Source: Cyanophora paradoxa CCMP329 (lineage: Eukaryota > Plantae > Glaucophyta). Taken from it: 64,000 nucleotides of DNA. Where the stretch lies: the NCBI GenBank assembly GCA_004431415.1, contig QPMI01000691.1:1-64000 (forward strand), given 5' to 3'. The notes beneath the pieces were generated by a model, which saw nothing but the letters and a program-made list of their open reading frames with translations, did not search any database and was not told the origin of the DNA. Both the position numbers and the translations under genes were made by a program. Below, piece by piece: positions 2,750 to 29,048 of the stretch (within the stretch, counting starts at the first letter, position 1; every line of letters starts with the position of its first letter).

Positions 2750-4299
2750 GGCTTTTACTATATGGATTTATAAAATTCCTTATAAGTATTAGATGCCTCA
2801 CAAAATAGTCCTTAGTTGTCAGTGGCGGGCAAGGGGCATTATCATTACCAGACTGCTCAAAGAAATCGAAAATCGAACTGGCAGCGAATCATTGACCTTG
2901 TGATCTTGTTAGTGGAACTTCCACGGGTGGATCATTGCCATTGGGTTGAACATCAGGCATCCAGATAGGGCAGGCGAACCCAAACTCACAGCCAGTGATT
3001 ACATAATTTACCTCACTCAGCTGCCCTTGATTTTCGCGATCCTCGAAATATAATCGAAAATGCCCTTTTTAACACCAAGTATGATGTGGCTCCTTTAGAA
3101 GCGCGATCAATTCTGTTACTGGCGAATCCCTCATTCAGGATTCTCTGAAGGACATTGTGATTACTTCGTTTGATACTCAGTACATGAAACCTATATTTAT
3201 CACAAACGATAACAACTACAACTTTCTGCCCTGTAAATAGCAGCAAGGGCTACCTCTGCTGCTCCCACCACTTTTCTCCTGTGAGTATAGTTGATTTTAA
3301 TCGAGGGTAACTGCTTGCCTTATTGATGGTGCTATTCAGAAACAATAACCCAAGTGGTGTGGCTATAGCCATGCGAGGAAGATTTACAGTGATGATGATG
3401 ACATTATAGTTATAAGCATCTCTTGTGTGAGGTAGACCCATATTTAGAGTCTGATTATTTCGGCTATGGTTATGAGACTGTGAACAGTTGGGCATTCTCT
3501 CATGGATTGCCTCAACAGATGGAAGCCCATTGATTACATCTCATGCAGCAAGTGAGCTGTCAGCTCTTGACAAGATGGAGGAGTTGCTGCTTACAACTAC
3601 GATCAGGATTATGGAGGTACTATAGGCTATCTGTTCCTCTTCCAAATCACATAGTCAAGTCCCTTGATGATACCTCTAAAATCCCCGACATGCTTTCGTT
3701 CACTGAGACATACATAGCAGCAAACAACACCATGATTAATAAGCTTTGCGATTGCTGTAGCAAACTATGAATTAAAGAACCCATCAAAAGCATACATCTC
3801 TTCCACTCTCACCCTTCACCACCTTTGATGCTAATTGGTACAAACTTGCTGATGATGCCTTACTGCCTCCTCCTCTGTGACAGGTAAAGAGCCCCACATG
3901 GCTCGACCTTCATCATTTGGCTGGGAAGCTGGGCATTGCTCCAGAGCAGATATGGGAGACCCCCACTGAGTACCTTCAAGTTGCGTTCCCATACACTTTT
4001 GAACTCTCTTCAGTGGTTGCCTATGGGTCAGGGACACCAATGCTTTTATAAAGACTTTCAATGTGGCTACATCAACTAATGGGTCAACTGGTCTTTTATC
4101 GAGCCGAAGGGCAGAACAAAACATTTGTTTGTGAGAATATAAACAATGCTAATAATTCCGGCGATGTAGCTTTATTAAATGGTTACCCTCTCACCATCAA
4201 GATGCTTTCTACATAGGTTCTCTTTGAGAATCAGTATGTTCGCATTTATCCCTTGTTTATGTCAATGCTCCACAATGAGAGTCGATTTTACAGGTGCGT

Positions 4300-5226
4300 T
4301 TATTCGATAAACTCGAGCTGAAAAGAATTGTCAATTCCATTCATGTCAATGATGTCACCAAAGTAGTCTTGAACTCAACTGTTAGTTCTCTCACCACCAG
4401 ATGTCGGTCATTAATTCGAATAAACTCCCCATGTTCACCATTATAGTAAACATAGCCTCCTATATCCTTGCTTAATTGGAGTCTCAGTATGGCGCCTTGG
4501 TTTTGTGGCTGTGATTTTGGACTATATTATGTCTGCTGGCAAAGGGAGCAAGTTCTTTGACATGTAAATAAAGGTACTGCTCAGCATTCATATCTGCATC
4601 TTATTCTGTAATAAACATATCTAAGAGTGTGGATGAAAGTCTGGATCCCGAAAAGTAGTTCCCCACAAGGGTGATTGAGTGTGATAGGTTTGCCATCATA
4701 CTTTAGAAAATTCTCAGGCGATATGGAGATTGAGAGGGCGAATTGTCATCCATAAATGAAGACTGGAACTCAGTTGAGCTTAACCCAGAAGCTTACCAAT
4801 ACGCTTATTGCTTGCTCTTATACGGAAAAATCGGTTACTGTAGAACTCCACTTTATAAGTGGTTGGATTGTAGAATAATTTGAATTCGAAAGCAACTGTT
4901 TTTCCTGCTATAGTTTCCTCATAGAACACATAGTTCAATCCATAGTTGTATGGTTGGGTGACCCCAAAATGACCCTGATTGATATAACCGGTTGGCAGAG
5001 GAGAGATGTTGTAAGTTACTGTTTCAGTGACAGAACTATCCTGATAGGTGAATTCCACTATTAAATGATCTGTTCCCACACTATTGTAAATGCTGTTTGG
5101 AATTTCTGCGTAAATGATCCTACACTCTCGAGGTCTCTCTACTGGTGTTGTGAGGGCAACCCTGTAAGAGTTTTCGGTTTCACCTTGGCTGCGATCCCTG
5201 CTATCAACATTGACAAGCCGGTTCAT
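4300..5226 (-). CDS. Minor capsid (penton) protein 1, frameshifted
   Basis: N-terminus VNVDSRDR...YRVAL...IIYAEIPNSIYN. Downstream frames give QYLYLHVKEL and DYFGDIIDMNGIDNSFQLEFIE* (stop 4300-4302), the typical PLV penton C-terminus. Confidence 0.75.
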
Positions 5227-5255
5227 TTTAATATATGAATATAGATAAAAGGAGA

Positions 5256-6280
5256 ATGCCCGTGGACTACATTGAGGTGAGCTCTTTTAATACAATCTCT
5301 GGTGACGGTCCTACTTCAAGCTTTGTAGCTCGACTTCCAAACATATATGAGAATGTGAGGGCTGTCAGGCTGGTCTCGGCCGAATTTATAATAGTATCCC
5401 TATGGTGAGTGGTGAAACGCAACCAGGGGATATTACAATTGATAATTCATTCAGCATTTTTTGGAGTGAAGAATTCGATGGTGCTGGCATTGATGGCATT
5501 CCAACTACTCGACCAGCGGCCGGCTTTGAACCTTGGAAGCAATTAATCATAAGTCGCAAAAAACCCATTCAAAGCCACCAGCAATTGGTAAATGTAATTA
5601 ATGCGAATTCGATGATAGAGAGCCGGAACCATCTATTCGCTGTAAATGGGATGAGTCACTAAAACGAATTATATTCCACTCAGAGAAACCTTTCTATCTA
5701 GCCTTCTCTGTTGCTGAAATCCAAACCAGAAAACGATCCAAAAGTTACTGAGCGCTGCCCGATTGCTTGGTCTTGATCCCGGAAGATATGGAAATTCCCC
5801 AATCCAATCACAGGTTTATAATGCTCTTACTGATGGCATCTTTACTGGTGAACGGGTGAATGGTATTATATCTTCGTTTGAGCCTGAAAAGACCAGGGAC
5901 AGTGTTTTATTTGTCAGAGTAAAAGAGTTGGTGATCTGGTTCAGTGTGGGGATGGTCTCCTGACTGGTTACTTCCATAAAATAGTGGTTCCTGACAAGGA
6001 CTACGGTGAGCATGTGGTTTACAATTCGACAGAATCCCACCCACTTTACAAATACTATAACAAAAAAATGAGTTTGTCTACATTCTCTGTGGATATAGTA
6101 AATGCTATAAACGAACCAATTGATTTTGAGGGTCAACCTGTCCACCTCACATTTGAAATTCGCTATGGGACGAGCCAGCAGGTGACCCTCTCTATGAATA
6201 CTTTAAGATGCGGATGTCGCAAAGTCATCCAACATATCCGGTCATTGCGAGTTTCGGGTAAACACAAGGATCATTCGTAA
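5256..6280 (+). CDS. Minor capsid (penton) protein 2, frameshifted
   Basis: MPVDYIEVSS...FVARLPNIYENVRAVRLVSAEF; later VLFVRVKEL and FSVDIVNAINEPIDFEGQPVHLTFEI. Same single-jelly-roll signature, immediately upstream of the MCP. Confidence 0.7.
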
Positions 6281-6314
6281 TTTTTTATGTTACAGTATAA
6301 TAAAAGCGAAAATC

Positions 6315-7685
6315 ATGGATATTACGTCGACCCTCCAGCGCCTTTCGTTGAAAGAAGCCCTAACAACCCCAGAGGAGGCCAAGGCCTTCTTTCTGGATAA
6401 CTCCCTTATGCTTGGTCTTGAATCCAAGTCTAAGCCCGTTCTTGTTGTTGTGAACCCGAGCAATACTTTTGAAAATAATGTTGGAAATCGCATTTCATTC
6501 AAACTCCCTCGCTACAATTTCTGTGGCAAACTCGAACTTGCCTTTGACCTTCCAGCTATCACTTTTGGTGATGCTGATCTTGTTCGAAATGGATACACTC
6601 GCCCAGTTGGTGCTTTGGTTCAGCGACTTGAAATTACCTATGGGTCATACACCTACCATATCCCTTCTGATTTCCTTGCTCATTTCCCTCTTGTCTATTA
6701 TAGTGAGGACCAACTTGCCAAAAAGAAGCGGTCAATGGGTATGCTTCACGGCATCCCCGCCCATGGAACCAACCGACTTGGTGGTTCTTTCTTCGTCGAA
6801 ATTCCTGTGCCTTGGCTAAACCACTACCTACCTCTTGGTGCTCTGTCTGGTGAAATGGTAGTAACTGTTTGGTTCAAGGATGTAGGGAAGGGTTATGTTG
6901 AGACTTCTTATGGTGGTCGTACTCTTCCTAAGGCTGGGGACACAGCCATTGATGGGGACAAGGACGATGGGCTTGGCGTCGCACCTGCTGAATCTGTGCT
7001 GGCACATGTTGGCCAAAACATCACCACTTTCAATCTTGGTGCGCCAAACGTTGAAATTAAAATTACTTCTCCTCGCCTTTATATGTATGCTGTTAATGTG
7101 TCTGATGAGCTTTTCGCTACTGTTATTGAGAAGGTAAAGACAACTGGCATGGCTATCCCTGCTCTGGATATTGGATTTGTGGATGTCAGTGATTTGAAAG
7201 CCAAGGGCGGCGCCCAGCCCAATCGAGTTAACCTCTCCCAAATCTCAGGTCTTGTTTATGCTCTGCTTGTTTCAGTTCGTGATAACGCTAATGTTGACAA
7301 AGCAAATGGTTCCCACAGTGTACTTAAGACCTACTCCAACTCCAAAGAGATCACATTCACAATTGAGATAAACGGCCAGCGACTTTTTGCCACTGAGCCA
7401 ATTTCGCTCCTCAAAGGTGCTGAGCTGATTGCTGATGTCTTCAAATGCTCTAATATGGATAAGGTTGCTGATCGCTATGTTCTTTCGGGTATGAGTTTCT
7501 GTCTTGATGGTGAGAAGGCAATTCGCAATATTGCCCAGTCTGGCTATGTTGACCTGACCAATTCTTCATCTTCATTCCTCACTCTCTACATGCCCACTGA
7601 CAAGGCAATTGATGTCAATGTTCGCGCTCTCATGCATAGTTTCATTATTGTGGACAAGGACGGCTTGAGGCGAATCAATCTATAA
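6315..7685 (+). CDS. Major capsid protein (double jelly-roll)
   Basis: Intact 456-aa ORF with ISFKLPR...LELAFDLP, VQRLEITYG and VEIPVPWL..YLPLGAL..EMVVTVWF motifs; located between penton and ATPase. Confidence 0.85.
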   Translation: MDITSTLQRLSLKEALTTPEEAKAFFLDNSLMLGLESKSKPVLVVVNPSNTFENNVGNRISFKLPRYNFCGKLELAFDLPAITFGDADLVRNGYTRPVGALVQRLEITYGSYTYHIPSDFLAHFPLVYYSEDQLAKKKRSMGMLHGIPAHGTNRLGGSFFVEIPVPWLNHYLPLGALSGEMVVTVWFKDVGKGYVETSYGGRTLPKAGDTAIDGDKDDGLGVAPAESVLAHVGQNITTFNLGAPNVEIKITSPRLYMYAVNVSDELFATVIEKVKTTGMAIPALDIGFVDVSDLKAKGGAQPNRVNLSQISGLVYALLVSVRDNANVDKANGSHSVLKTYSNSKEITFTIEINGQRLFATEPISLLKGAELIADVFKCSNMDKVADRYVLSGMSFCLDGEKAIRNIAQSGYVDLTNSSSSFLTLYMPTDKAIDVNVRALMHSFIIVDKDGLRRINL

Positions 7686-7738
7686 ACCATATTCAGTCAC
7701 ATCGTATTATTTTTATCTGGTTCTTTATAGAAGGAAGC

Positions 7739-8520
7739 ATGGGCGACTTGGACGAATTTAATGCTGGTGAGATGATAAATCCCCTTTCCGCGTTTTGGCA
7801 ATTGGCAAATCTGCTACTGGTAAATCAGAGGCTGTAAAGTACTGGCTCAAGCAGCTTCATGATGCCAAAAAGATTGATGTCGTTTTGGTGGTGAGTGGAA
7901 CAAGCTTTAATCATTTCTGGGATAAGGTGGCCACATTACAATTGGGGAAATGGGACGCCCCTTACATTGCTAAATTGCTGGATGAAAGGCAAGAGAAAAT
8001 AGAAAAAGGGGAACCTGTTAACCAATTATGTGTTGTTTTGGACGACCTTATTGACAACGAAATAGTAGATTTGACCCGAGATAAAATAATCGGAAGTCTT
8101 TACAGTCGTGGTAGACATTCGAAAATATCTATTATCTGTATCACACAAAAGCTAAGGAAAGTCTCATCAACAATTCGCGTCAACTCAGATTATGCTATGT
8201 TCCTAAGCGCTGCCAATAGAAAGGAGCTTGAAGCCATTGAGGAAGAATACAATATAATGCGGGACAAAGATGTTTTCTATAAAATGTTTGAAGAATATGT
8301 ACATTCCTATCAGTTTCTAATTTGGTCATCTGCCGATTATTCTGTGAAATATTTCGTAGATAAAGCGGATTTGGTCAAAGATTTCCCATTTCCACGGTTC
8401 CACAGGAAGCCAAAGAAGAAAGAAGATGAGCTTAAACCACCAGAGAAAGAAGAAGGGCGAAAAGAAGTGAGAAGCCAAGTTCATAGTAATAAGTTAATGC
8501 GATATAAACGCGGTCTATAA
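7739..8520 (+). CDS. A32/FtsK-like genome packaging ATPase
   Basis: PFRVLAIGKSATGKS (Walker A), VVLDD (Walker B), SRGRHSKISIICITQ, IRVNSDY. The likely ATG at 7739 needs one extra base near 7777-7781. Confidence 0.93.
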
Positions 8521-8548
8521 AAATATCTCTCACTTTAATAAAGACACA

Positions 8549-9281
8549 ATGCCCCCCAAACGCAAAATAGGCATCCCTGCTGGGGCTGTTGGTTATTCAG
8601 GCGGTGGTAACAATGGCTCCATTAACACAGACCCGCTTAAATTCAATGGAATGAATGAGGTTAAGCCATCACAGCAACAAGAGGATCCCTTAATGCCGCC
8701 TATGAGGAATCTTTTGATGACAAAGCCCCACAGACGTCCACCAGTGATCAGCTCAACATCTCCCCTGAAGCTTCTAAAATGAAGGCTGTGGGTGAGGGTG
8801 CCAGGCGAATTATAGGTGCTGCTGATGACAAAGGTCTTGGGCTCCAAGATCTATCACTCACTCGCAAAGGTGAGGGTCTCAGTAAAGAATCCGACAAGGT
8901 TATCCAGTCTATGGCGGGTGAAGTCACATACAAGACTGCTCCCACCCAGAATATTCATAGAGTTCCCAAGGCTCAATGGGACGAGATGACTGCCAAGCTT
9001 AAAGATCTGGAAGCCAAATCAAGTGCCTTAGAGCAATATGTAACTGAGAAGAGAGAGAGATCCAAACTCAAGGAGATGCTAAGAAAGGAGGTGTTCAAAA
9101 TGGGATCACTGGGATTCCAGATAAACAGTTTATTGCCAAGAAAGAGAACCAAATTGATGAGCAAGCTGTTGATGAAATGAAAACAAAGACCCAAAAGGGG
9201 ACTATTGAGCCAGGTGCTACAAAGGCTGAGGTGGACAAAGGTGTAGCCCCCACAGTGTATAAACGACGGGTTTGGCTTTGA
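8549..9281 (+). CDS. Hypothetical charged/coiled-coil protein (possible core protein), apparently one gene with two frameshifts
   Basis: ORFs 8549-8782 and 8779-9180 and a third frame join by single-base shifts near 8690 and 9097. Confidence 0.45.
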
Positions 9282-9309
9282 GAAAAAATAAACGTTTTTT
9301 CTATTATAA

Positions 9310-9540
9310 ATGGATGATACCATCAGTCTGGTTGAGTTCACCGTTGATAGTCCTGTTAGTGAGAGTTATATTAAGAGCGCTGTAGCAAACCAAAAACGAT
9401 ACAGGGAAGACCCAGAATATAGAGAGTTTAAGAAACAGCAAGCCTTGGCATCATATTATCGCCGAAGGGCACAAAAAGATGTTGTGAGGCCTATAGGGAG
9501 GCCAATTAAACATTATTTGACCACTGAGAGCAGCAACTGA
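9310..9540 (+). CDS. Small basic putative DNA-binding protein
   Basis: YREDPEYREFKK helix and IGRPIK AT-hook-like motif; TATAA immediately before the ATG. Confidence 0.6.
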   Translation: MDDTISLVEFTVDSPVSESYIKSAVANQKRYREDPEYREFKKQQALASYYRRRAQKDVVRPIGRPIKHYLTTESSN

Positions 9541-9541
9541 G

Positions 9542-10071
9542 TTATTTTGTCCTGTTACTTGTAAGATGTGGCAATGGCTCCAACAATTGCTGGATATGTT
9601 TCATATACATGTGACCAGCAATTATAAGTGTAGCTGTTGTGATACTACTATTGACGTCAGCATTGGATCTTCCTCCCAAGTGGATCCAGGAGTGGGTCTC
9701 CCTATGATGTGGTGCGCTCAACTGAGGGGCAAAGGGTAAGCTTGGAGAGCATTGAAGAGGTGACAGGGGAGCAATTTGCTCAGGCTGTAAGCAGCGCTTG
9801 GAATGAGTACCAAGGAAACCGTCTACATTGAACACATTATCTGCCATCAGGGAAGGGGCTAATCTCATTTCCAAGCATGAGGAGATCGTTTGATATTTTT
9901 GTAAAGCTGCTTTGATATGTGGAGACAGGGGGCTATTCGATGACCAAGGTTGTACAGTTCTATAGAGACGCGATGTATGGAGTCACTCAATTCAGGGCTT
10001 GGAGACGTCAGCGCCAAATATGAGAGTTCAAAGGAGACCTCTACAAGGCGAGTATGGATGGGAGTTGTCAT
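9542..10071 (-). CDS. Hypothetical protein (two overlapping ORFs, probably one frameshifted gene)
   Basis: ORFs 9865-10071 and 9542-9874 overlap by 10 nt; no recognised motif. Confidence 0.35.
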
Positions 10072-10267
10072 AATAATCTACTTTTAGGCAGCATAAAAAT
10101 GCGAAAGGGGCGGCTCTGCGTAGAGCTTGATGAGAGCTTCACAGGAAAAAAAAGAGCGCTCAAAACGGCCAATCTGGTGCCGAGATATTCGCGTTTGAAG
10201 TTCCTTAAGTGGCTCTAATTGAAAGTTTTAGAAACATTCTTATAGAGCTCTATAAGGAAATAGCTGC

Positions 10268-10444
10268 GCAATCTCAGCGTTGCGCGGCCATACAAGGAGC
10301 AATCTCAGGCTTGCGCAGCCACACACTGAGCAATCTCCGGCTTGCGCGGCCATACAAGGAGCAATCTCAGCGTTGCGCGGCCATACAAGGAGCAATCTCA
10401 GGCTTGCGCAGCCACACACTGAGCAATCTCAGGCTTGCGCAGCC
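10268..10444. repeat. Tandem array A, about 6 x 31 bp
   Basis: gcaatctc recurs at 10268, 10299, 10330, 10361, 10392 and 10423; unit like gcaatctcaggcttgcgcagccacacactga. Confidence 0.95.
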
Positions 10445-10450
10445 CGCGTG

Positions 10451-11100
10451 TATATGTATATGATATATATGAAAAAAAAAACAAGTTTTGGTAAAAACTA
10501 CAGCGCCGTGATCGCCATGACGCGGCGAGTCCGGAAAGCTATGATATATATATATGTCATGTGACATTATGATATATCATATACATATATCATTATGGTA
10601 TATACAAGTCGCTCAAATTGAAGTCTTATAAGGTCTTATAAGAGTTGTCTTATAGAATTCTTTTCTAAAATCTTATATGGTCTTATAAGATTTAATGTGC
10701 GTACCGTAGCGCAGTACGCAAGCCACTTTGCGTACCGTAGCGCCGTACGCAGCCCACTGTGCGTACCGTAGCGCAGTACGCAGGCCACTGTGCGTACCGT
10801 GGCTCAGTACGCAAGCCACTGTGCGTACCGTAGCGCAGTACGCAAGCCACTGTGCGTACCGTAGCGCAGTACGCAGGCCCCTGTGCGTACCGTAGCGCAG
10901 TACGCAGGCCCCTGTGCGTACCGTGGCTCAGTACGCGCGAACGTACATATGTATATGATATATATGAAAAAAAAACAAGTTTTGGTAAAAACTATAGCGC
11001 CGTGATCGCCATGACGCGGCGAGTCCGGAAAGCTATGTTATATATATATGTCATGTGACATCATAATATATCATATACATATATCATTATGGTATATACA
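10451..11100. repeat. ~155-bp AT-rich direct repeat (10451-10607 and 10946-11100)
   Basis: tatatgtatatgatatatatgaaaaaaa...cagcgccgtgatcgccatgacgcggcgagtccggaaagctatg...ggtatataca occurs twice with few differences. Confidence 0.95.
10698..10937. repeat. Tandem array B, about 8 x 31 bp, palindromic unit
   Basis: tgcgtacc recurs every 31 nt from 10698 to 10915; each unit contains the inverted repeat tgcgtac-N9-gtacgca. Confidence 0.95.
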
Positions 11101-11136
11101 TTTGGTATATGCGAAACTGAAAATATTCGTAGCTCG

Positions 11137-11490
11137 TCACCAGATCATCGTAAGGCTATGATGTTGGAGTCTATAAATATCTACTTTGTACGAGGAATCC
11201 AACGGTGATAGCGGCAAGGAGTGAATCGGTGATTTTAAGATGGGGTACTTACAATTTTCATGACTTTCTCCAGCTAAAATTTGCTTTGTGGAGTAGGGCA
11301 TACCCTCCATGCCATAGTTATCACATATGATGTTCTCATATGCCTCCATCAATCTGCGCAATTCTTTACTTTTCTGGGGTTGATGTCTTGGGGGACTTCC
11401 TATACTCATCATAATACTGCTGCCTGACTGCCTCCCACAGTTCAACCATGTCCTCAAGGGGATGTCATCATAGCTGCTATCTGAGTCCAT
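11137..11490 (-). CDS. Hypothetical protein
   Basis: 117-aa ATG-initiated ORF with no recognised motif. Confidence 0.35.
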   Translation of the reverse strand: MDSDSSYDDIPLRTWLNCGRQSGSSIMMSIGSPPRHQPQKSKELRRLMEAYENIICDNYGMEGMPYSTKQILAGESHENCKYPILKSPIHSLPLSPLDSSYKVDIYRLQHHSLTMIW

Positions 11491-11995
11491 GGTGGTACTG
11501 GTGGGCTTATGTAAGACTGTTTGGGGGTTGGGGTGTCAAGAATCAATTTTTGGTGGGCACTTGGGGGGCTTGGGCTCTTCACCATGCTATATGAAGATGT
11601 CCTTAAGTGCTGGTGGCCTACAAGCAAGTGGGGTAGATTTTGGGGGGGTTAGGGGACTCAAGGGGAAGTTAGGGGGGGTTTCTGCCAACTGACGTCTTGT
11701 TGTTTAGGTTACCATTCTCAGTCTGGAAGGTGGGGTTTAGGGGGGATTAGGGGGTTGTTGAGTGGGTAGGGGGGTATTCTCTCACAACTCTATATATTTC
11801 TGGCTTGTTGCTTAAAAATGAAAAAGAGTTGGAGGCTATAGGAGTTATATATCCCCCCCTAGGTCCCCTAACCCCCCCACATGTATACATTATTACCATT
11901 TCTGGTCATAAAACAACCAGAAAGTAAAAAATGAAGGTCCCCCAGAAGGTCCCCCAGACGTCTTGAACCCCCCCCAAAAACCTATCATGAGCCCC

Positions 11996-14269
11996 CTAAT
12001 CCTCCTCCTCTTCCAAAAATTCTATCAACAGCCCACAGCTCTTGAAGTAAGCCATCATCTCATCCCACTTGAAGACATAACACTCCCTTCCACAATACTT
12101 GGTAGGCCTCACATATTCCAGTCCAGCCATCTCAATGTAGAACTTCCTTGAGCTGAATTCATTCTTGAATTTATTAATTGTAATGAACTGCTGGAACCAC
12201 TCCCACACCTGTTGCCTGTTCTCAGTCCTTGGTGTATCCTTGGTAATCTTTTGGGTGTCTACCAAATCCTTGGTGAACAAGGCAGTGACAGGAACACTTG
12301 CTTGTTGGGCAAGGTAGTAGCTGTTGGTCATTGGCCTGTCAGCATACCAGTTCACATCTGTGACATCCACCTTGTTTTTCAAGTAAAGGAATACCATGTG
12401 CTGGTTTCTTGGCTCCTTCAGCCAATTACCCAGTGACTTGAAATATTTCATGTCACCCTTTTTCTTGTCACTCACCTCCACAATCACAAACCTTCTATCT
12501 CCAGCCTCCACTTTGATTGGTAGGGTGTTGTTGGTAGTAAATATGATCCTGGCAAAATTCCTCACCTCATGAGAATTGACATACTTAGCCTCAATTACAA
12601 TTTTCTCAGCAGTGATCATGTCCTTGAGGGCATCACTGTTTGTGAAGGTGTCTTTGCCACTTGCCTCATTCACAGTGATAAGTAGTTTGTGCTTTCGCTG
12701 GTGGGCAAAGTTTCCAAATAAGTCCTTCAGTGGGTTGGCTGTGCTGAAAGCCAAGTCCCCACCCAGTATTTCATTTTGAAACCAATCCAATATGATGTTC
12801 TTCCCCACTCCTTGCTTTCCCTTGAAGATGATTGAAATCCCATTCAACTCCCCAGGTCTCTGAATAATGTGGGCAAAGTACTTCAGTATGTAATTGAATG
12901 TAGAAGCATCTTCACCACTGAGAATCATCATGTGGTCAAGGAATGGGCTAACATCTTCCTCAGTTACATCAGGAGGAATATCCATTTCACTCACATCCAT
13001 AAGCTCACCTTTCATACCAGCATAGGCATTAAACACCTTGGCAGTGGTGGAAGCAGATTTTACAGGAGGTGGGAGGAAGTCCAAGTAATCATACCTTGTG
13101 GCAGTCTCATCTTTCGCCCACTTTTTGATGAAGTTATGAGGCTCCATCTTCATAGACATTAGGTCAAACTCTGTGTACTGAATGTGAGGGTATACATCCT
13201 CAGCCAAGCTTTTGAAGCTGGTTGTGTCATACTTCTTGGTATGATCATTCCAAGACAAGACAAACCCAGGCTTCATAATGTGAGCAAGTCTGGCATCCAT
13301 GTAGGGCTTGATCTCCATGTAATCACAGTTGGTAGGAATTGGAGCAGTCTTGTAATCAATGTTGGAAAGGGAAGCTTGACATTCAGGTACATCAAACCCA
13401 CTGGCCATAGGTTTTTCCACAAAAGTCACCCTGTAGCCAGTTTTCCCCTCCACATAATCACTAACCTCTTCCAAAGCACTCAATACTTTGGGGTCTTTCC
13501 TGATCATACATCCATCAAAGACCAAGACATCCACATGGAGCTTAAGAGCACTGAAGTACTCACAAGCAGCCATTAACACCTGATTCTCAAGGTCACATAG
13601 TACCATATTCATGGTGGAACCAAGTACATTGCTTTCTTTCTTGCGCTTAGCAATAGCATAGAAGCGCTGCTTCTCAATCCCACCAATGAATTGATGGACT
13701 TTGGCCATTTCCTCTTTGAGATCACTGAAGTACTTGTGATTGATAAGGAGGCTGGAGAGGTCAGCCCCTTGCCCACCATTGATGACTGCCAGAATGCTGC
13801 GCTTGACATCAGCCTTGGATTTCTGGGTGACCTCACAGAGATCATCAAGAATTTCATCCCTGCTCTGAACATATTTGTTCAGCTGAGGAGTGGCAATTGA
13901 ATGTTTCTCACAATACTGAACAAGCAGGACAGGGTGGCAGTTCACAATGTCAATGTCATAGTAGTAGTCCTTGGAAATGGTGTGGCGAATTTCCCTACAG
14001 ATGCTTTGAAGGCTGGGGGTTTTTCCATCCACAAAGTACCTACCAGTGTTGTGCTTCACCTGCTTATATTTACAGGTGTGGTAGCCCTCATGATCGACGA
14101 TAGAAAGTAATTTCTGGATGATGGCTCTCATTTGGGTCTTGTCAGTTTCAGGGCGAAACTGGAGATTATCAAAGTTCTCCACCACCCATTTGAGGTTACC
14201 TCTGTGGATGCGCTCAGTGAGAATGAAGGTGTTGCCATTGGGGTTGATTGAGCTGAATGAGGGAGCCAT
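11996..14269 (-). CDS. TVpol (PolA-family primase-polymerase) fused to SF3/D5-like helicase
   Basis: PolA-type motifs: GRYF..SLQSICREIR, YDIDIVNCHP (A), K.SILAVINGG (B), LVFDGCMI (C). SF3 motifs: GKQGVGKN, ITVNE, IFTTNN, DRRF. Confidence 0.9.
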   Translation of the reverse strand: MAPSFSSINPNGNTFILTERIHRGNLKWVVENFDNLQFRPETDKTQMRAIIQKLLSIVDHEGYHTCKYKQVKHNTGRYFVDGKTPSLQSICREIRHTISKDYYYDIDIVNCHPVLLVQYCEKHSIATPQLNKYVQSRDEILDDLCEVTQKSKADVKRSILAVINGGQGADLSSLLINHKYFSDLKEEMAKVHQFIGGIEKQRFYAIAKRKKESNVLGSTMNMVLCDLENQVLMAACEYFSALKLHVDVLVFDGCMIRKDPKVLSALEEVSDYVEGKTGYRVTFVEKPMASGFDVPECQASLSNIDYKTAPIPTNCDYMEIKPYMDARLAHIMKPGFVLSWNDHTKKYDTTSFKSLAEDVYPHIQYTEFDLMSMKMEPHNFIKKWAKDETATRYDYLDFLPPPVKSASTTAKVFNAYAGMKGELMDVSEMDIPPDVTEEDVSPFLDHMMILSGEDASTFNYILKYFAHIIQRPGELNGISIIFKGKQGVGKNIILDWFQNEILGGDLAFSTANPLKDLFGNFAHQRKHKLLITVNEASGKDTFTNSDALKDMITAEKIVIEAKYVNSHEVRNFARIIFTTNNTLPIKVEAGDRRFVIVEVSDKKKGDMKYFKSLGNWLKEPRNQHMVFLYLKNKVDVTDVNWYADRPMTNSYYLAQQASVPVTALFTKDLVDTQKITKDTPRTENRQQVWEWFQQFITINKFKNEFSSRKFYIEMAGLEYVRPTKYCGRECYVFKWDEMMAYFKSCGLLIEFLEEEED

Positions 14270-14367
14270 TCTATAATAGGGTGAGATAATTATTTCAGTG
14301 AACTATACCCTTAAGTACTTTTCAGAAAAAGGAGTAACTCCAATCAATTTTTTCGGACCCCCCACCC

Positions 14368-14559
14368 TCATACATAGGGATTTCGCTTCCTTGGCCGCCC
14401 CCTCCGGTCAGGAACAGCCTCTTCAAACAAATACCTGATACACAATAAAGCGCCTGCTCTGTACGTACTAACCCTTACATATTTCTTGTGAAGCTCTCGA
14501 AACTCTGGGTCATTTTGAATCCTGCGTTGGATGTATCTCATTTGCTTTGTGTATGCCAT
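14368..14559 (-). CDS. Small basic AT-hook protein
   Basis: NDPEFRELHKK and RRGRPRK; resembles the product of 9310-9540. Confidence 0.6.
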   Translation of the reverse strand: MAYTKQMRYIQRRIQNDPEFRELHKKYVRVSTYRAGALLCIRYLFEEAVPDRRGRPRKRNPYV

Positions 14560-14754
14560 TGCTTGATGCGTTTCCTCTTATAGTATAGTTGAGATTTCTT
14601 TTTAAGTAGATTTCACTCTTCAAAACGTTGGAGGGATAGCTTACATGCGCGTACTATTTTTTGGGTGGGCACCCAGTTACTCAGCCTCTTCTCAATCTTG
14701 CCACATTGAGTAATCATCTGATTAATCCAATGAACCTCCCCAAATCACAGAAAT

Positions 14755-15111
14755 TTATGTCCCAGAAGCATGTTTAAATAATGAGTTTCTGAGCTCTTTG
14801 CTCTTTTGAACAAAGATATTCTTGACATCACTCCACAAGAGTTTGATAATTGGATTTGACCCTTCACCATACTGCCATGTAGAGGAGTTACCAACCCGAA
14901 AATACCATAGTCCTTGTTTTTTACCTTCAGGGATTCTGTAAAGCACCTTGTGACTAAGAGCCAGACGGGCAACTTCAGCTATTGACTGGTCAGTGCCCTC
15001 CATGATACATCGTGAGACAGCTTGTTTAATAACCTCCTCATTCTTGGATTGGACAGCATCCACTTCAGTGGTGTCAATCGTGAGAATTCGAGCATCCATT
15101 GTGACAATCAT
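14755..15111 (-). CDS. D5 N-terminal-domain-like protein
   Basis: GTDQSIAEV...LY...LWYF...TW pattern resembles D5_N; the 3' end may be frameshifted. Confidence 0.45.
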   Translation of the reverse strand: MIVTMDARILTIDTTEVDAVQSKNEEVIKQAVSRCIMEGTDQSIAEVARLALSHKVLYRIPEGKKQGLWYFRVGNSSTWQYGEGSNPIIKLLWSDVKNIFVQKSKELRNSLFKHASGT

Positions 15112-15216
15112 CTTGATCTCCTTTGAATATAGTAGAGAAAATAATCTTTAAGTAGTAACTATACCAGCACTTAAAGAAATAAAATGTTCCCTATATAGAA
15201 TACAGCCCCCACAACC

Positions 15217-18200
15217 ATGCCCCGCCCCAGCCACTACCAAATTAAGGAGCTCCAGGACAAGATTCTCGGGAATCTGGCCTTCCTCCTTGCGAACCACTCC
15301 ATCAGTGAAAGCGAATATGAATCATACATAAGCCAAACCAACAAGAAGCTCAAGGGGCTTCAAGCTCTCAATCGAGAGCTATTAGGGAAAATTGACGCCC
15401 TTGATGAGACTGATCGCCTTGGCCAAATCCAAGTCGAACAAACAACCACAACTCAAGTCAGAGGAGATGAATACACTACCTTAATAAATGAGCATCGCGC
15501 TCTGAACAATAAATACATCGATTTCACAATCAGAGCTCAGCACCAGATCCTGACCACTCAAGAGTTTATAGACACCTACTCTGAGGAACTCCACACAAGG
15601 CTCCAAGATGCCATCAATTCACAGATGTCGATTAAAACTCGCTTTACATTTGTCTGTCGCTTTTCTAAGGCCAATAATTCGAGAGATTTTATTACCAAGC
15701 ACATTTACAGCACCTATGCTATCATGACAAGATCTCGAATCCTCACAAAAGAGACAGCTAAACTTGCCAAGGAATGCCAGTCGCAAATTAATGTCACAGA
15801 TAGCTACAGATTAGATAGCATCCAAGCCCTCAGGGTCATTGTTCTCTCCTTTAAGCCAATCTCAGGAGGAGCATTTATTCCATTGCCTGAGTGGCTAAAA
15901 AATAAACGCGCCATTGTCAATGTTAATAACAAGGACAATAGGTGCTTTGAATACTCCATCCTGAGCTATATTCACAAGGACGAAGTAAATAGCCACAAGC
16001 GCAATGAGACTTCCCAATACAGGAGGTGGTTCAAAAAAGAACTAAATTTCGAGGGCATTGAGTTTCCTGTGAAGGCGGATGCTGATACTATTGATCTCTT
16101 TGAAAATCTCAATCCAGCAATCTCTGTTAATATTTACGACCCCTCTAATTCTACAGAAGAAATTAATCTACTCCACAACAGCTCCTCAAGGAACAGGAAA
16201 CACCAAGTGGATCTGCTGCTAATTACAGACGAAAATGGTAACAGTCATTATACCACAATATTCAGCATGTCCAGAGTCTTAGCTAAAAATGATAAGCAGC
16301 GACTCCATTTCTGTAAAACCTGTTCCAACCACTTCAAGACTGAGGAGAAGCTTCAATCCCACATTCAAAGCAAACGTTGTGTGGATTGGAAGACAAGTGC
16401 TGGAGAGACCCCAAAACAACCCACATTCATTGAATATGGTCTTAAACATCTCTCAAAGACTGTATTCCTCCCAGTGATTGCCTATTGCTATTTCGATTTT
16501 GAAACAGATCAAGAAGGTATGTTCAAGATCAAATCAATCTCACTGACAGCTCTTCATAATAATAGAGTAGTACTCACTAAAACCCACTCCAGCATCTACG
16601 AGCTTTTATCTACACTCGACAAAGTAGCCCCAGAGCTATTCAAAGCCATATTTACCAACGTCCCAATGTCACTGACCAAAGAGCAGAAACGTACCCATTA
16701 CCTTGCTAAAACCTGCTACATCTGCCAAGGTGATTTCACCCAAGACAATTATAAAGTGAGGGATCATGACCATCAAACAGGCGATTTTGTAGGCACAGCA
16801 TGTCGCAAATGTAATCTCCACAGACGCACCAGCAATCTCACCAAGATTCCCATAGTGACCAATGATCTGTCCCTATCTGGAACGCAGATATTCAAGGCAG
16901 TCGCCTTAAATCCCGAAAAAAGGGTGGAAGTCCTCGCAAAATCGTTTGACAACTACATGTCGATCACCTGGGGCTGTTTCAAATTCATTGACATCAAAAA
17001 CTTTATTGATTATGGCGTCCAGAACGTGGAAGGATTAATGGAAAAGTTCCAGCTTTTCCGCCAGAAATCACACAAAACTTTTGGGATGGACGCTGCCCAC
17101 TATGTCTCAAGTCCAGGGCTTTCGTGGGACAGCATGCTATCGATTACCAAGCCCAAAATCGAACTCCTCTCCAACCTTGATATGTACAACATGGTTGAAG
17201 GCATGATCAGGGGAGGCCTTTCGATTATGAATCATAAATATGCCAAAAAGGAAAGGGACAGACACATTATATATTTGGATGCCAATAACCTATATGGATA
17301 TGCCCTGTCCCAAAAGCTACCCCTCTCGAATTTCCAATGGCACCCAGAACCCTCAAATTACGACCTGTCATCAGCAGAGGGGGCCATCTTAGAAGTTGAC
17401 ATCCATTATCCCCAGCACCTCCATCAACTCCACAAAGAACTGCCTCTTGTCATCAAGAGAACAGAAGATGGGCTACAAGCAGCCTGCCAAGACATATCCA
17501 ACTTTGTGGTGTCGAAACCTTTGCTCCAATTCATGGTAGCACAAGGCTTAAAGGTCACCAAAATCCACAGGGTGCTAACATTTACTGAGGCTGCCTTTAT
17601 GAAGCCCTACGTCGAATCCAATGCCCAAAACCGCAGAGAAGCCGCCTCCAAACCCGAAAAGGACTTCTTTAAGATCATGAACAACAGCCTATTCGGCAAA
17701 ACCATTGAGAAAGTGAGAGGAAGGTCGAATGTCAAGATTGCCACCAACGAAAAGCAATTTATGAAATACGCCAGATCGCCCCTACTCAAAGCAGAAACAA
17801 GACTAAGCGATTCAGCAGTAGCCTTCGAAATGCTACAGAAAGATGTCAAGTTAGATAAGCCCATAGCAATTGGTGCGTTTGTATTGGATCTTGCCAAGCT
17901 GCGCCTATTTGATTATTATTATAACACCATCAAGCGGAAATGGCCAGACTGTAAACTGCTTTTTACTGATACAGATTCGCTTTGCCTTCAAATAAATTCG
18001 AAAACTATAGCAAAAGACCTACAAGACATTGATACCCACCCCACAGAGCTTGGAAAGTTCAAAAATGAGTTTGAGGGCAGAACCATTATTGAATATGCTG
18101 GGGTAAGGCCGAAATGTTACAGCATTAAAACAGATGATGAGGAAATAAAAAAACTGGCAGGTGTTTGTAAGGAGACCATTCAAACAGATCTGTCTTTCCA

Positions 18201-18312
18201 AGATTATAAAGACTATGTGCTCCACCAAAAACCCAAGCAAATCGAAATGACTGTCCAAAAGAAGCTTGAAAATGAGACCTACAATGTGAAGATGTCAAAG
18301 ATTGCTTTCTAA
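15217..18312 (+). CDS. polB: Protein-primed family B DNA polymerase (pPolB) with C2H2 finger and endonuclease VII-like insert
   Basis: FIPLPEWL..K.AIVNV.NKDNRCF; CYIC...VRDHDHQTG...CRKCN; IRGG; YLDANNLYG; KIMNNSLFGKT; TDTDS. Intact 1031 aa. Confidence 0.96.
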   Translation: MPRPSHYQIKELQDKILGNLAFLLANHSISESEYESYISQTNKKLKGLQALNRELLGKIDALDETDRLGQIQVEQTTTTQVRGDEYTTLINEHRALNNKYIDFTIRAQHQILTTQEFIDTYSEELHTRLQDAINSQMSIKTRFTFVCRFSKANNSRDFITKHIYSTYAIMTRSRILTKETAKLAKECQSQINVTDSYRLDSIQALRVIVLSFKPISGGAFIPLPEWLKNKRAIVNVNNKDNRCFEYSILSYIHKDEVNSHKRNETSQYRRWFKKELNFEGIEFPVKADADTIDLFENLNPAISVNIYDPSNSTEEINLLHNSSSRNRKHQVDLLLITDENGNSHYTTIFSMSRVLAKNDKQRLHFCKTCSNHFKTEEKLQSHIQSKRCVDWKTSAGETPKQPTFIEYGLKHLSKTVFLPVIAYCYFDFETDQEGMFKIKSISLTALHNNRVVLTKTHSSIYELLSTLDKVAPELFKAIFTNVPMSLTKEQKRTHYLAKTCYICQGDFTQDNYKVRDHDHQTGDFVGTACRKCNLHRRTSNLTKIPIVTNDLSLSGTQIFKAVALNPEKRVEVLAKSFDNYMSITWGCFKFIDIKNFIDYGVQNVEGLMEKFQLFRQKSHKTFGMDAAHYVSSPGLSWDSMLSITKPKIELLSNLDMYNMVEGMIRGGLSIMNHKYAKKERDRHIIYLDANNLYGYALSQKLPLSNFQWHPEPSNYDLSSAEGAILEVDIHYPQHLHQLHKELPLVIKRTEDGLQAACQDISNFVVSKPLLQFMVAQGLKVTKIHRVLTFTEAAFMKPYVESNAQNRREAASKPEKDFFKIMNNSLFGKTIEKVRGRSNVKIATNEKQFMKYARSPLLKAETRLSDSAVAFEMLQKDVKLDKPIAIGAFVLDLAKLRLFDYYYNTIKRKWPDCKLLFTDTDSLCLQINSKTIAKDLQDIDTHPTELGKFKNEFEGRTIIEYAGVRPKCYSIKTDDEEIKKLAGVCKETIQTDLSFQDYKDYVLHQKPKQIEMTVQKKLENETYNVKMSKIAF

Positions 18313-18323
18313 TCCCAATATAG

Positions 18324-19694
18324 ATGTCATCAAAGATCACACGCAGACAAACAGAGTACGATGTGAGTATATTGCCAATCCCAATCCCTCAAGAGGAGAG
18401 AGGGGGTCGCATTCAGAAAAAGAGTGACCTGAAAGCTTTAGTTCCTGCGGATATCCCAACTGCCATTGCTGTGCCCCACTTGGATCCCTTAGCAAGGACA
18501 TTCTATGACACCAAGGTAGGATTTAAAGGCCTGGCTTCATTGGCCAAAGAGCTTCCAGATGTGCCAAGAAAGACAATCCGTAGATTCTATGATGCCCAAG
18601 AAATCAACCAGATAAATAAACCCCTCCCATCTGCCAAGAAGACTGCCTATATCCCAATAAGACAGCCACTCGACTGCTATGCCATAGACCTAATCTTTTA
18701 TCCCTCATATAGCAAACAGAATCAAGGCTATAACACATTCCTCACAGCTGTAGAAAATACCACAAGGCTCGGCTTTATTATTCCAATGAGGGGAAAGACA
18801 GCAGAAAGCACATTGAACGCATTTAAGGAGCTTGAGCAACAAGTCCCTCGTCCAATTGTGAAGATACAAAGTGATGCTGGGAGCGAATTCCTGAACAAAG
18901 TATTTAAAGACCATTTAGAAGCCCAGATGATTGAGCACCAAGTTTCGCAGGTTGGAGATCACAATAGCCAAGGCCGAATAGAAGCCTTTAATCGCACAAT
19001 AAAGAAGCTAATTAACTCGTATTGTATAGCGAATAATACTGTAAAGTTTTTCGACAAGCTCCAAGATTTTGCCTACAACTACAATAATACCATCCACTCA
19101 GCAACGGGGATGAAACCAGCAGAGACCACAGAGGTACATGTTCCTCTCATACTCGCAAAAGAAAACGAGAAATTCATGAAGTCAATTGAATATCTAAAAG
19201 ACTATCCAGCAGGGAGCCACGTGAGAACTAAAATAGAGAAAAGCCCATTTGCCAAGCAGGGCAATAATTGGAGCCGCGAAATATTCACAATAGAAGGAGT
19301 GGAGGGGTTCAAATTCAAACTAAGGGACATTTCTGGCAAACTAATAGATCGACTTTATGCCCACTACGAATTACAGAAAGTGGAAGCCGTGGAGTTCTTG
19401 GAAGCCCCATCAATTAATGTCATTGAAGAGGCAAAGAAAGAGGCCAGAACAGAGCGACTTTTGGCCAGAGAAGGGATTGAGAGGGCTCCAAATGTGCCAG
19501 ATAAACCATTATTGGAGGACAGAGCAGGGAAGAAGAAGAAACAAGGGAGAGAGTTGGAGAGATTGAGGGTGGCGGGAACAGAGAGATTAGCAGGGGGAGC
19601 AGAGGCAGTAAGGTGGTATAGAGATTTCTCAAATTCAAAGGAGACCTATGAAGCTCCAGCAATTTCCACGAGATCAAGGAGGAGGGCAGGATGA
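18324..19694 (+). CDS. int: Retroviral-like (rve) DDE integrase
   Basis: Catalytic D-D-E in AIDL / QSDAGSEF / RIEAFNRTIK; YNNTIHSATGMKP; Polinton-type C-terminus G..VR...K.PFAK...NWS.EIFTI...Y..ELQKV. Confidence 0.95.
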   Translation: MSSKITRRQTEYDVSILPIPIPQEERGGRIQKKSDLKALVPADIPTAIAVPHLDPLARTFYDTKVGFKGLASLAKELPDVPRKTIRRFYDAQEINQINKPLPSAKKTAYIPIRQPLDCYAIDLIFYPSYSKQNQGYNTFLTAVENTTRLGFIIPMRGKTAESTLNAFKELEQQVPRPIVKIQSDAGSEFLNKVFKDHLEAQMIEHQVSQVGDHNSQGRIEAFNRTIKKLINSYCIANNTVKFFDKLQDFAYNYNNTIHSATGMKPAETTEVHVPLILAKENEKFMKSIEYLKDYPAGSHVRTKIEKSPFAKQGNNWSREIFTIEGVEGFKFKLRDISGKLIDRLYAHYELQKVEAVEFLEAPSINVIEEAKKEARTERLLAREGIERAPNVPDKPLLEDRAGKKKKQGRELERLRVAGTERLAGGAEAVRWYRDFSNSKETYEAPAISTRSRRRAG

Positions 19695-19741
19695 GACATC
19701 TGTTACACATTATTGTTTTTTCTTAGCTATTGGTATTCAAA

Positions 19742-20140
19742 ATGCTTGCCAAAGGTTACCATGTGATGCTCGATTTCCAATTCAGCCAACCAATTAGCGA
19801 CCATGTGGGGCTCTCTAAATGGCTCATGAATGTCAGTGAAGACATCATCAAGAAATATGGAATACAGGTTGTCCACAAACATGCTGAGATTTTTGATGGC
19901 ACCAAATCACCCCCTGGATTTGCCCAAGTATTATTATTAGATGAAAGCCATTGCTCTGCTCATTGCTACAGTGATCAAGGCATGTTGGCAATAGATATAT
20001 TCAGCTGTGGAAAACAGGCAGAAAGGAATACAAGTTTAATTGCTTTTGAGCTGGAGGAGGAGATAAACAAATATGCTGTTGGATTTGGGGCAGTGATCAA
20101 AAAGAGATTACACCATGAGAAGAAGAGATTTGAAGTTTAA
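19742..20140 (+). CDS. speD: S-adenosylmethionine decarboxylase proenzyme, prokaryotic SpeD/SpeH type
   Basis: GYHVMLD...PPGFAQVLLLDESHCSAHCY...AIDIFSCG: the E|SH autocleavage site and DxFxCG motif; about 132 aa. Confidence 0.9.
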   Translation: MLAKGYHVMLDFQFSQPISDHVGLSKWLMNVSEDIIKKYGIQVVHKHAEIFDGTKSPPGFAQVLLLDESHCSAHCYSDQGMLAIDIFSCGKQAERNTSLIAFELEEEINKYAVGFGAVIKKRLHHEKKRFEV

Positions 20141-20164
20141 GAGAGGGGCAGGAGAGGCAAGAGA

Positions 20165-20256
20165 GGCAGGAGAGGCAGGAGGGTTATATGTAAAATCCCA
20201 CACAAGAGGGGATTCCTTAGGAAAGTTTACAAATAACCCTCCTGCCTCTCCTGCCT
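20165..20256. repeat. 30-bp inverted repeat (hairpin) just after the last PLV gene
   Basis: ggcaggagaggcaggagggttatatgtaaa pairs with tttacaaataaccctcctgcctctcctgcc (1 mismatch). Confidence 0.9.
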
Positions 20257-20378
20257 AATTGGTGCCGAATCCAAGCTTCTAATACCCCAGAGGCGGCCAA
20301 CATACTGGTGCCAAAAAGACATGATTAATACCCTAAGACCTGAAATAAATGCTTACTACCCTAGTACCTGAAACGCGC

Positions 20379-20453
20379 ACACATAGGGATACCCCTGATC
20401 CAAGCCTGTAGGCCGAAGGCCGGAGGGCTTGGATCAGGGGTATCCCTATGTGT
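20379..20453. repeat. Perfect 28-bp inverted repeat with an inner GGCC-GAA-GGCC hairpin
   Basis: acacatagggatacccctgatccaagcc (20379-20406) and ggcttggatcaggggtatccctatgtgt (20426-20453). Confidence 0.97.
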
Positions 20454-20777
20454 CAGGTGGGCGGCGGGAGCGAAGAGGCCGACGACGAGAATGGCGGCTG
20501 GACGGAGCGCGGTGAGATGATTCACACCACCATCAACATCAAGATGCCCCGATTCGTCGTCGAGGCCTTTTCGAAGCTCCCGCTCGAGGGGCGCTGGGAC
20601 CTTCAGAGGATACTCGACGAGGGCTTCATGAAGAGCACGAACAATGTGTGCAGGCAGTGCACGCCAAAGACGCCCCGCGCCACCCTCCGCGACTTGATAG
20701 CACACAAGACCCAGGCCGATTTCGACTCAATCACCCTCCCCGTAGTTAGCGAGTTCCTTGCCGAGTACGGGCTGTAG
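20448..20777 (+). CDS. Hypothetical protein (5' end overlaps the hairpin, so possibly truncated)
   Basis: 109-aa GC3-rich ORF containing a CxxC. Confidence 0.45.
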   Translation: MCQVGGGSEEADDENGGWTERGEMIHTTINIKMPRFVVEAFSKLPLEGRWDLQRILDEGFMKSTNNVCRQCTPKTPRATLRDLIAHKTQADFDSITLPVVSEFLAEYGL

Positions 20778-22968: not shown

Positions 22969-23029
22969 TTCGATTGCGAAATTGTCGACCCCCGAGCCCT
23001 ATCGCGGTAGCACTCGACCGCCCCTCGAA

Positions 23030-23310
23030 TATCGCCAGTTCCATACGAACATAGCTTCAGGTCGGCCCCCCTTGACTTTAGTAGTCACGGGGTCGGGGGC
23101 GGACCCTATGTTCGTACGGAACTGGGGATACTCGAGCCGAGAAACACAGGCCGGAGAACACAGGCTTGGCGAAACACAGGCCGACCGTTGGCCGGCTCAA
23201 ATAGCGCCAGTTCCATACGAACATAGCTTTGGGGGCGCCCCCGTGACTTCTATAGTCATGGGGGCCAGCCTGTGTTCCTATGATCGTACGGAACTGGGGA
23301 TACTCGAGCG
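23030..23310 (-). repeat. Two diverged, inverted copies of the 154-bp palindromic unit
   Basis: cgccagttccatacgaacatagcttc...ttgactttagtagtcacggggtcggggg...ctatgttcgtacggaactgg is the reverse complement of the array unit at 29049-31350. Confidence 0.9.
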
Positions 23311-23353
23311 CGTTAAAAGCCCCCGAGATTTCGTGAGCGCCAGAATTGACGTA

Positions 23354-28965: not shown

Positions 28966-29048
28966 GAGTTAATCAATAATAAGAGAGAAAGGGAACTGCT
29001 GGGATTCAAACCTGTCAATGTTTGGACTCTGTCGAGTTCAGAGAGCAT

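What the first reader, a model, noticed from the sequence alone, without database searches (positions are those of the whole stretch)
19742..20140. SAM decarboxylase directly downstream of the integrase
Seen: an intact SpeD-type gene with its cleavage motif. Established: AdoMetDC converts SAM to dcSAM for polyamine synthesis; dcSAM is not a methyl donor; some homologues decarboxylate arginine or ornithine instead. Inference: either polyamine supply for packaging, or SAM depletion to blunt host methylation silencing of the provirus (cf. T3 SAM lyase). Metabolic genes are unusual in elements this small.
Basis: partly seen in the sequence, partly recalled or inferred. Interest (0 to 1): 0.7.

Follow-up and report, generated by a model that had tools for sequence, protein, structure and literature searches.

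The report
Polinton virus carrying arginine decarboxylase
A small virus integrated in many copies in a microbial eukaryote's genome carries an intact enzyme gene that looks like SAM decarboxylase but likely turns arginine into the polyamine precursor agmatine, and was likely picked up from giant viruses.

Summary
The gene is real: an intact 132-aa class 1b SpeD-fold protein with Ser69/His74/Cys89, 47 nt after the integrase at the right end of a multicopy Polinton-type element. The substrate call is probably wrong. It nests (100/99) in a clade with Poseidoniales proteins, apart from 3 phage enzymes validated on SAM. Those archaea carry one SpeD (40 of 41 genomes), no spermidine synthase (0 of 41), and SpeY beside it (74 of 80 loci), the arrangement Li et al. 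2023 showed to encode arginine decarboxylase (SpeDA). So SAM depletion is unlikely; polyamine supply is plausible but via agmatine. Its sister group includes giant-virus genes; SpeD genes of Polinton-like contigs fall in three places beside giant-virus genes (single clade rejected, p=0.0004). The gene is rare, swappable cargo (4 of 80 related loci). SpeD in virophages/PLVs already stands in supplementary tables (PMC7805220, PMC12220804), undiscussed in the passages searched. No enzyme assay exists for this protein. The scan earlier noted a bacterial speDA-speY pair, not a viral one.

The parts
19742..20140 (+). Class 1b SpeD-fold pyruvoyl proenzyme, 132 aa; likely arginine decarboxylase (SpeDA)
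19940..19963 (+). Asp67-Glu68|Ser69...His74: self-cleavage site, with an acidic residue two before the Ser
20006..20008 (+). Catalytic Cys89 (T. maritima C83)
18324..19694 (+). rve-family integrase, 456 aa
   Evidence: Pfam rve E=1.1e-5, below cut-off; IS481-type DDE E=7e-21; 5 relatives
15217..18312 (+). Protein-primed family B DNA polymerase with endonuclease VII insert, 1031 aa
   Evidence: Endonuclease_7; Atlas look-alikes with DNA_pol_B_2 at 0.95; no direct polymerase HMM hit; catalytic motifs recognised from recall
11996..14269 (-). Second replicase: SF3 helicase with a PolA-like (TVpol) N-terminal part, 757 aa
   Evidence: DUF5906/VapE, PHROG primases; PolA label from recalled motifs only
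6315..7685 (+). Major capsid protein candidate, 456 aa
   Evidence: Atlas clusters with Capsid_N/Capsid_NCLDV at 0.98, recognition value low; one relative at 58%; fold model failed
7771..8520 (+). A32-type packaging ATPase (stop-to-stop frame)
   Evidence: Pox_A32 E=7.9e-10
20164..20256 (.). Hairpin 23 nt after the speD stop, 31-nt arms, 97% complementary; possible 3' end signal
   Evidence: (z=-11 for 20140-20470)
20379..20455 (.). Terminal hairpin (28-nt perfect arms) ending in CA; inferred right end of the element
   Evidence: single-copy flank contig starts at 20426 and depth drops to 57/37; GC step
10237..11100 (.). 31-nt tandem repeats and a 134-nt direct repeat between capsid and replication modules
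1..20455 (.). Endogenous Polinton-type element, about 42% GC in 60-75% GC flanks; no matching left end in the window

Best explanation
The gene is an intact SpeD-fold proenzyme at the right end of a multicopy integrated Polinton-type virus, and it likely self-cleaves into a pyruvoyl enzyme that likely decarboxylates arginine to agmatine rather than SAM. Shown: ORF, fold, catalytic residues, clade, copy depth. Inferred from family knowledge: cleavage at Glu68|Ser69 and a dimer. Inferred from placement and neighbours: arginine specificity, with Asp67 a candidate substrate contact. Inferred, untested: it is accessory cargo exchanged with giant viruses, expressed when the element replicates, and host enzymes convert agmatine to putrescine and spermidine, which support viral translation and DNA packaging.
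For: Tree of 96 rows: the protein lies in an 87-row clade (100/99) and a 61-row subclade (99/95) with 11 of 11 Poseidoniales-type rows, excluding S-PM2, phiYS40 and P2559S enzymes, which PMC9992855 validated on SAM. Poseidoniales order: one PF02675 match in 40 of 41 genomes, spermidine synthase in 0 of 41; SpeY within 4 kb in 74 of 80 loci, agmatinase in 45 of 80. PMC10407285 assayed two marine group II/III proteins from speB-speD-speY clusters: active on Arg only, no speD complementation. SpeY uses agmatine (PMC13625781). Of 39 long homologues scanned, fusions were to SpeY (5), agmatinase (1), PQ-loop (4), SET (1), NNMT-like (4), none to spermidine synthase. Acidic residue two before the Ser: Asp here; Glu in validated HTVC201P ADC and both functional SpeDC domains; Ala/Gly/Ser in 8 of 8 SAM-type sequences seen. 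Sister group (99/85) holds giant-virus genes L095, L096. dN/dS about 0.08-0.12 in 3 of 6 PLV gene pairs, the other 3 saturated.
Against: No assay of this protein or any viral member of the clade. The validated SpeDA sequences themselves were not available; the link is by orthology and gene order. The two eukaryote-virus SpeDs validated on SAM (HaV01, YLPV2) were not in my tree; only the paper's text places them elsewhere. The paper's diagnostic Pro is in a figure I could not see: the window lacks the Pro after the second His but keeps Pro57, and validated phiYS40 also lacks the former. Few outgroups, long branches, bootstrap not settled. No agmatinase or SpeY in 17 viral loci or the window; none of 4 giant-virus records had arginase-family, agmatine deiminase, ODC or SpeE genes, so downstream steps depend on an unexamined host. 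Expression not shown.
Confidence: 0.68

Rival explanations
1. True AdoMetDC: makes dcSAM for spermidine or drains SAM to blunt methylation silencing.
For: Same fold and catalytic triad; eukaryotic viruses do encode validated class 1b AdoMetDCs; element is CpG-depleted, speD has 2 CpG against 16.7 expected; 4 of 39 long homologues are fused to an NNMT-like methyltransferase.
Against: Below TIGR03330 cut-off; clade's archaea lack SpeE and sit with SpeY/SpeB; Asp at the S-2 position; 3 of the 4 NNMT fusions' context aside, two also carry SpeY; no SpeE in 4 giant-virus records. The same clade occurs in giant-virus and free PLV-like contigs that are mostly not CpG-poor.
Confidence: 0.1
2. Arginine decarboxylase used as a weapon, not a supply line: draining arginine or piling up agmatine hampers the helper giant virus or resets host polyamine control.
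For: Single gene with no downstream enzyme in the element; cultured PLVs are reported to inhibit giant viruses (abstracts); agmatine effects on ODC control are recalled, not tested here.
Against: Giant viruses carry the same gene family, which fits a pro-viral use; clade enzymes are slow, kcat/Km 20-180 per M per s.
Confidence: 0.1
3. Ornithine or dual Arg/Orn decarboxylase giving putrescine directly.
For: Would need no host agmatinase; phage SpeD homologues with ODC or dual activity exist; a virophage SpeD in PMC7805220's supplement has SpeDC-like motifs.
Against: Glu not Thr before the Ser, Cys not Phe after the second His, no Tyr before the DIFSC motif, judged against Fig. S5 text; all 6 assayed members of the Poseidoniales-containing clade were inactive on Orn.
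Confidence: 0.07
4. Neutral hitch-hiker captured at the element end and amplified with it.
For: Sporadic across PLV-like contigs; a clean presence/absence between contigs with 98% identical capsids; absent or diverged in much of the larger capsid family.
Against: All invariant residues kept; GC and CpG match the element, so long residence; low dN/dS in related PLV genes.
Confidence: 0.05

Closest known systems
SpeDA pyruvoyl arginine decarboxylases, Poseidoniales/Gimesia/Nannochloropsis/Tribonema clade (Li et al. 2023, PMC10407285)
   Same: Fold, Ser/His/Cys, clade with Poseidoniales and Planctomycete proteins, up to about 55% local identity to Poseidoniales proteins
   Different: Encoded alone by an integrated small eukaryotic virus, without speB or speY; not assayed
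Class 1b AdoMetDC (T. maritima 1tlu/1vr7; phage S-PM2, phiYS40, P2559S; HaV01, YLPV2)
   Same: Fold and cleavage motif
   Different: About 23% identity, separate branch, below TIGR03330 cut-off, Asp at S-2, no Pro after the second His
Pelagiphage HTVC201P SpeDA and chlorovirus PBCV-1 ADC (PMC9992855)
   Same: Viral arginine decarboxylase feeding host or viral agmatine-to-putrescine steps
   Different: HTVC201P enzyme is on a distant branch; PBCV-1 enzyme is PLP-dependent and comes with its pathway
Polintons/Polinton-like viruses with pPolB and RVE; PC_0120 of Bellas and Sommaruga 2021 (PMC7805220 supplement)
   Same: pPolB, RVE, A32 ATPase, capsid candidate; SpeD homologues already tabulated in 22 virophage/PLV proteins
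   Different: Divergent capsid with one relative found; second replicase; PC_0120 is labelled DNA methyltransferase or AdoMetDC with no substrate analysis in the rows seen

Membership tests
Class 1b SpeD-fold pyruvoyl decarboxylases (PF02675) | Profile score over cut-off and AdoMetDC fold | tested here: met
Class 1b SpeD-fold pyruvoyl decarboxylases (PF02675) | Ser, His, Cys for processing and catalysis | tested here: met
   S69, H74, C89
Class 1b SpeD-fold pyruvoyl decarboxylases (PF02675) | Actual self-cleavage | not testable with these tools
   needs protein
Bona fide AdoMetDC (TIGR03330) | Equivalog cut-off 75.65 bits | tested here: not met
   48.5 bits; two Planctomycete clade members pass narrowly, so the cut-off is not clean
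Bona fide AdoMetDC (TIGR03330) | Groups with validated SAM enzymes | tested here: not met
   only 3 validated phage enzymes included
Bona fide AdoMetDC (TIGR03330) | Diagnostic proline of Li et al. Fig. 8 | tested here: inconclusive
   figure not seen; one candidate Pro absent, one present; phiYS40 exception
SpeDA arginine decarboxylase, Poseidoniales clade | Placement with Poseidoniales speB-speD-speY proteins | tested here: met
   by orthology, assayed sequences not in hand
SpeDA arginine decarboxylase, Poseidoniales clade | Activity on L-Arg only | not testable with these tools
   needs assay
SpeDC ornithine decarboxylase | Diagnostic Gln, Thr, Phe, Tyr | tested here: not met
   mapped from Fig. 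S5 text
Polinton-type element | pPolB plus RVE integrase plus A32 ATPase plus capsid | tested here: met
   capsid and polymerase rest on Atlas look-alikes
Polinton-type element | Terminal inverted repeats and target-site duplication | tested here: inconclusive
   right end seen; no matching copy in the window
Polinton-type element | Maturation protease | not tested
   left-arm frames are broken in this assembly

The most novel reading that the evidence does not exclude
Polinton-like viruses have repeatedly taken a pyruvoyl arginine decarboxylase from the giant viruses they share cells with, and use it to steer the arginine-polyamine pool during co-infection, possibly against the helper virus: a first metabolic lever in the virophage-giant virus-host triangle.
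Probability: 0.2. Interest if true: 0.75.

Novelty: new member of a known kind. Interest (0 to 1): 0.42.

Why it matters
It corrects a common mis-annotation (AdoMetDC or methyltransferase) of a gene family in small and giant eukaryotic viruses, extends the SpeDA clade to them, and gives a 132-aa enzyme with a ready E. coli test of whether 20-kb viruses invest in polyamine supply. It also marks repeated gene exchange between giant viruses and Polinton-like viruses.

Tried and rejected
No whole genome is held, so host polyamine genes and the element's left end could not be examined. IMG/VR scans with the window's SpeD, close alignment A2, capsid and pPolB gave no loci. Capsid fold from 2 sequences failed, pLDDT 34.7; its profile did not match the L008/L010/L014 capsids. 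Expression: no RNA holder listed; two runs guessed to be RNA gave a few low-depth contigs on rve, speD and the end and elsewhere: no evidence either way. No hairpins after other genes, so no general hairpin rule. Counts of Asp67 in pattern-fetched loci (79 of 79) are circular because the scan pattern held that residue; 283 of 284 stored proteins are also ranked by likeness to the query. A paper on T. maritima substrate contacts was not found. Literature searches without a paper discussing SpeD in Polintons/PLVs; bioRxiv supplements were closed and may bear on this.

Full report
Observation. Window 19742-20140 (+) encodes an open 132-aa protein, 47 nt behind the rve integrase ORF. It matches Pfam AdoMet_dc over cut-off, keeps the residues equivalent to T. 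maritima S63, H68 and C83, folds confidently (pLDDT 95.6) and its five best structural matches are class 1b AdoMetDC proenzymes.

The element. Bases 1 to about 20,450 are about 42% GC, the flank 60-75%. The low-GC part holds a capsid candidate, an A32 ATPase, an SF3-helicase replicase, a pPolB-like polymerase, the integrase and speD. Two strong hairpins follow speD; the second ends in CA at 20455. In two DNA runs of one coded organism the speD contig has depth 919 and 650 against 57 and 37 for the flank, a ratio of about 16-18 (a rough figure, the tool warns that depth is no copy number). Single contigs on the left arm reach depths of several thousand, so speD seems confined to a subfamily of a larger family, or is too diverged elsewhere to be laid. 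No matching left end lies in the window. The broken frames in the left arm differ from Illumina contigs mainly by single-base gaps with few or no substitutions, which suggests assembly error. The only capsid relative found (58%) is a EukProt gene model of a glaucophyte alga; the host of this window is not identified.

Substrate. The word-seeded search gave 109 homologues, best 66% (P0002, 800-nt contig, context unknown), then a group at 45-63%. A GTDB scan found 266 relatives and kept the best 80: 79 titled as marine Euryarchaeota/Thermoplasmatota/Methanobacteriota archaea, many named Poseidoniales or Thalassarchaeaceae, and one titled Yoonia (the scan pattern selects this motif). SpeY lies within the fetched 4 kb in 74 of 80 and agmatinase in 45 of 80. 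In 41 genomes of that order there is one SpeD match in 40 and no spermidine synthase in any. Li et al. 2023 (PMC10407285; parts 1-4 of 7, passages and supplement text read, figures not seen) assayed two marine group II/III proteins from speB-speD-speY clusters and four more of their clade: arginine only. SpeY couples agmatine (PMC13625781, passages). In my 96-row tree the window protein sits in that clade (100/99; subclade 99/95), apart from three phage enzymes validated on SAM in PMC9992855 (parts 1-4 of 7 and supplement passages read). Fusions in 39 of the longer representatives from a 1.8-billion-protein search include SpeY, agmatinase and PQ-loop domains (cationic amino-acid transport is recalled for PQ-loop proteins), never spermidine synthase. 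One residue tracks substrate in the sequences I could see: two before the Ser it is small in 8 SAM-type sequences, Glu in 3 validated Arg/Orn enzymes and Asp here; the sample is small. Against: no assay; the paper's proline marker is ambiguous; validated eukaryote-virus AdoMetDCs were not in the tree.

Distribution in viruses. A pattern scan of IMG/VR gave 14 loci: by gene content six are PLV-like (L002, L007, L008, L010, L011, L014; A32 hits in L007, L010, L014, weak in L002; L011 has no capsid or ATPase identified), six giant-virus-like and two phage-like (labels partly my inference). A metagenome scan gave 4 loci, three giant-virus-like with the closest full-length matches (48-50%; L095 has an NCLDV capsid). 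The window protein with P0002 is sister to that group (99/85). PLV-like rows need three changes in all 200 bootstrap trees, each beside giant-virus rows, and a single clade is rejected (p-AU 0.0004). Direction is not proven; giant virus to PLV is my inference. Among 80 loci picked by capsid, 4 carry SpeD, three of which seeded the capsid alignment and one was known before; 0 of the other 76, 2 of 34 loci of 12 kb or more. The four are scattered on the capsid tree, and L111 and L114 (98% capsid identity) differ by a clean insertion of the gene. dN/dS is about 0.08-0.12 where computable.

Mechanism. Most likely the proenzyme cleaves at Glu68|Ser69, forms a pyruvoyl group and makes agmatine from arginine (inferred). 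The element has no downstream enzyme, nor did 4 giant-virus records, two of them 91% complete, so the host would finish the route to putrescine and spermidine, or agmatine itself is the product. SAM depletion is unlikely. The element's CpG deficit fits methylation pressure, but it is met by CpG loss and the gene family also occurs in contigs without such a deficit.

Novelty. SpeDA is known. SpeD homologues in virophages and PLVs are tabulated as cluster PC_0120, 22 proteins, in the supplement of PMC7805220 and as a PF02675 column in PMC12220804's supplement (header only seen); 'decarboxylase' does not occur in the main texts of those two or of four other papers searched, and the supplement of PMC9952930 had no hit. 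What appears new is the assignment to the arginine clade and the repeated giant-virus/PLV pairing. Verdict: real, substrate re-assigned, new member of a known kind, interest 0.42.

Noticed in passing
window 11996-14269 and 15217-18312: Two replicases in one element; depth between them (370-440 in X2) is lower than on pPolB-rve-speD (about 900+), and other copies have different DNA upstream of pPolB, suggesting modular swapping.
   Followed up: partly
window 1-20455: CpG o/e 0.20-0.53 in the element against 0.94-1.07 in flanks and 0.72-1.06 in six free PLV-like contigs.
   Followed up: partly
window 1-6300: Several frames, including a patatin-like gene (label from recalled motifs), are broken by single-base gaps that Illumina contigs do not share; likely assembly errors.
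   Followed up: partly
window 6315-7685: Very divergent capsid candidate: one relative among 7997 scored candidates, none in IMG/VR.
   Followed up: partly
L046:4001-5293, L050:4001-5296; P0175, P0177, P0244: SpeDA-SpeY and agmatinase-SpeDA fusion proteins in marine archaea and other records.
   Followed up: no
P0155, P0157, P0180, P0186; P0178, P0204, P0223, P0226; P0163: SpeDA-clade domains fused to PQ-loop, to NNMT-like methyltransferase (two also with SpeY) and to SET domains.
   Followed up: no
window 23024-23311 and 29035-30000+: A 154-nt palindromic repeat array in the flank with inverted copies about 6 kb upstream, enclosing short ORFs including a glycine-rich gene; possibly another mobile element.
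   Followed up: no
L011:12574-13176; L002:9502-10092: Other metabolic cargo in small PLV-like contigs: deoxynucleoside kinase and LicD.
   Followed up: no
L099:1-746: The validated AdoMetDC of phage P2559S overlaps a methyltransferase-domain gene.
   Followed up: no
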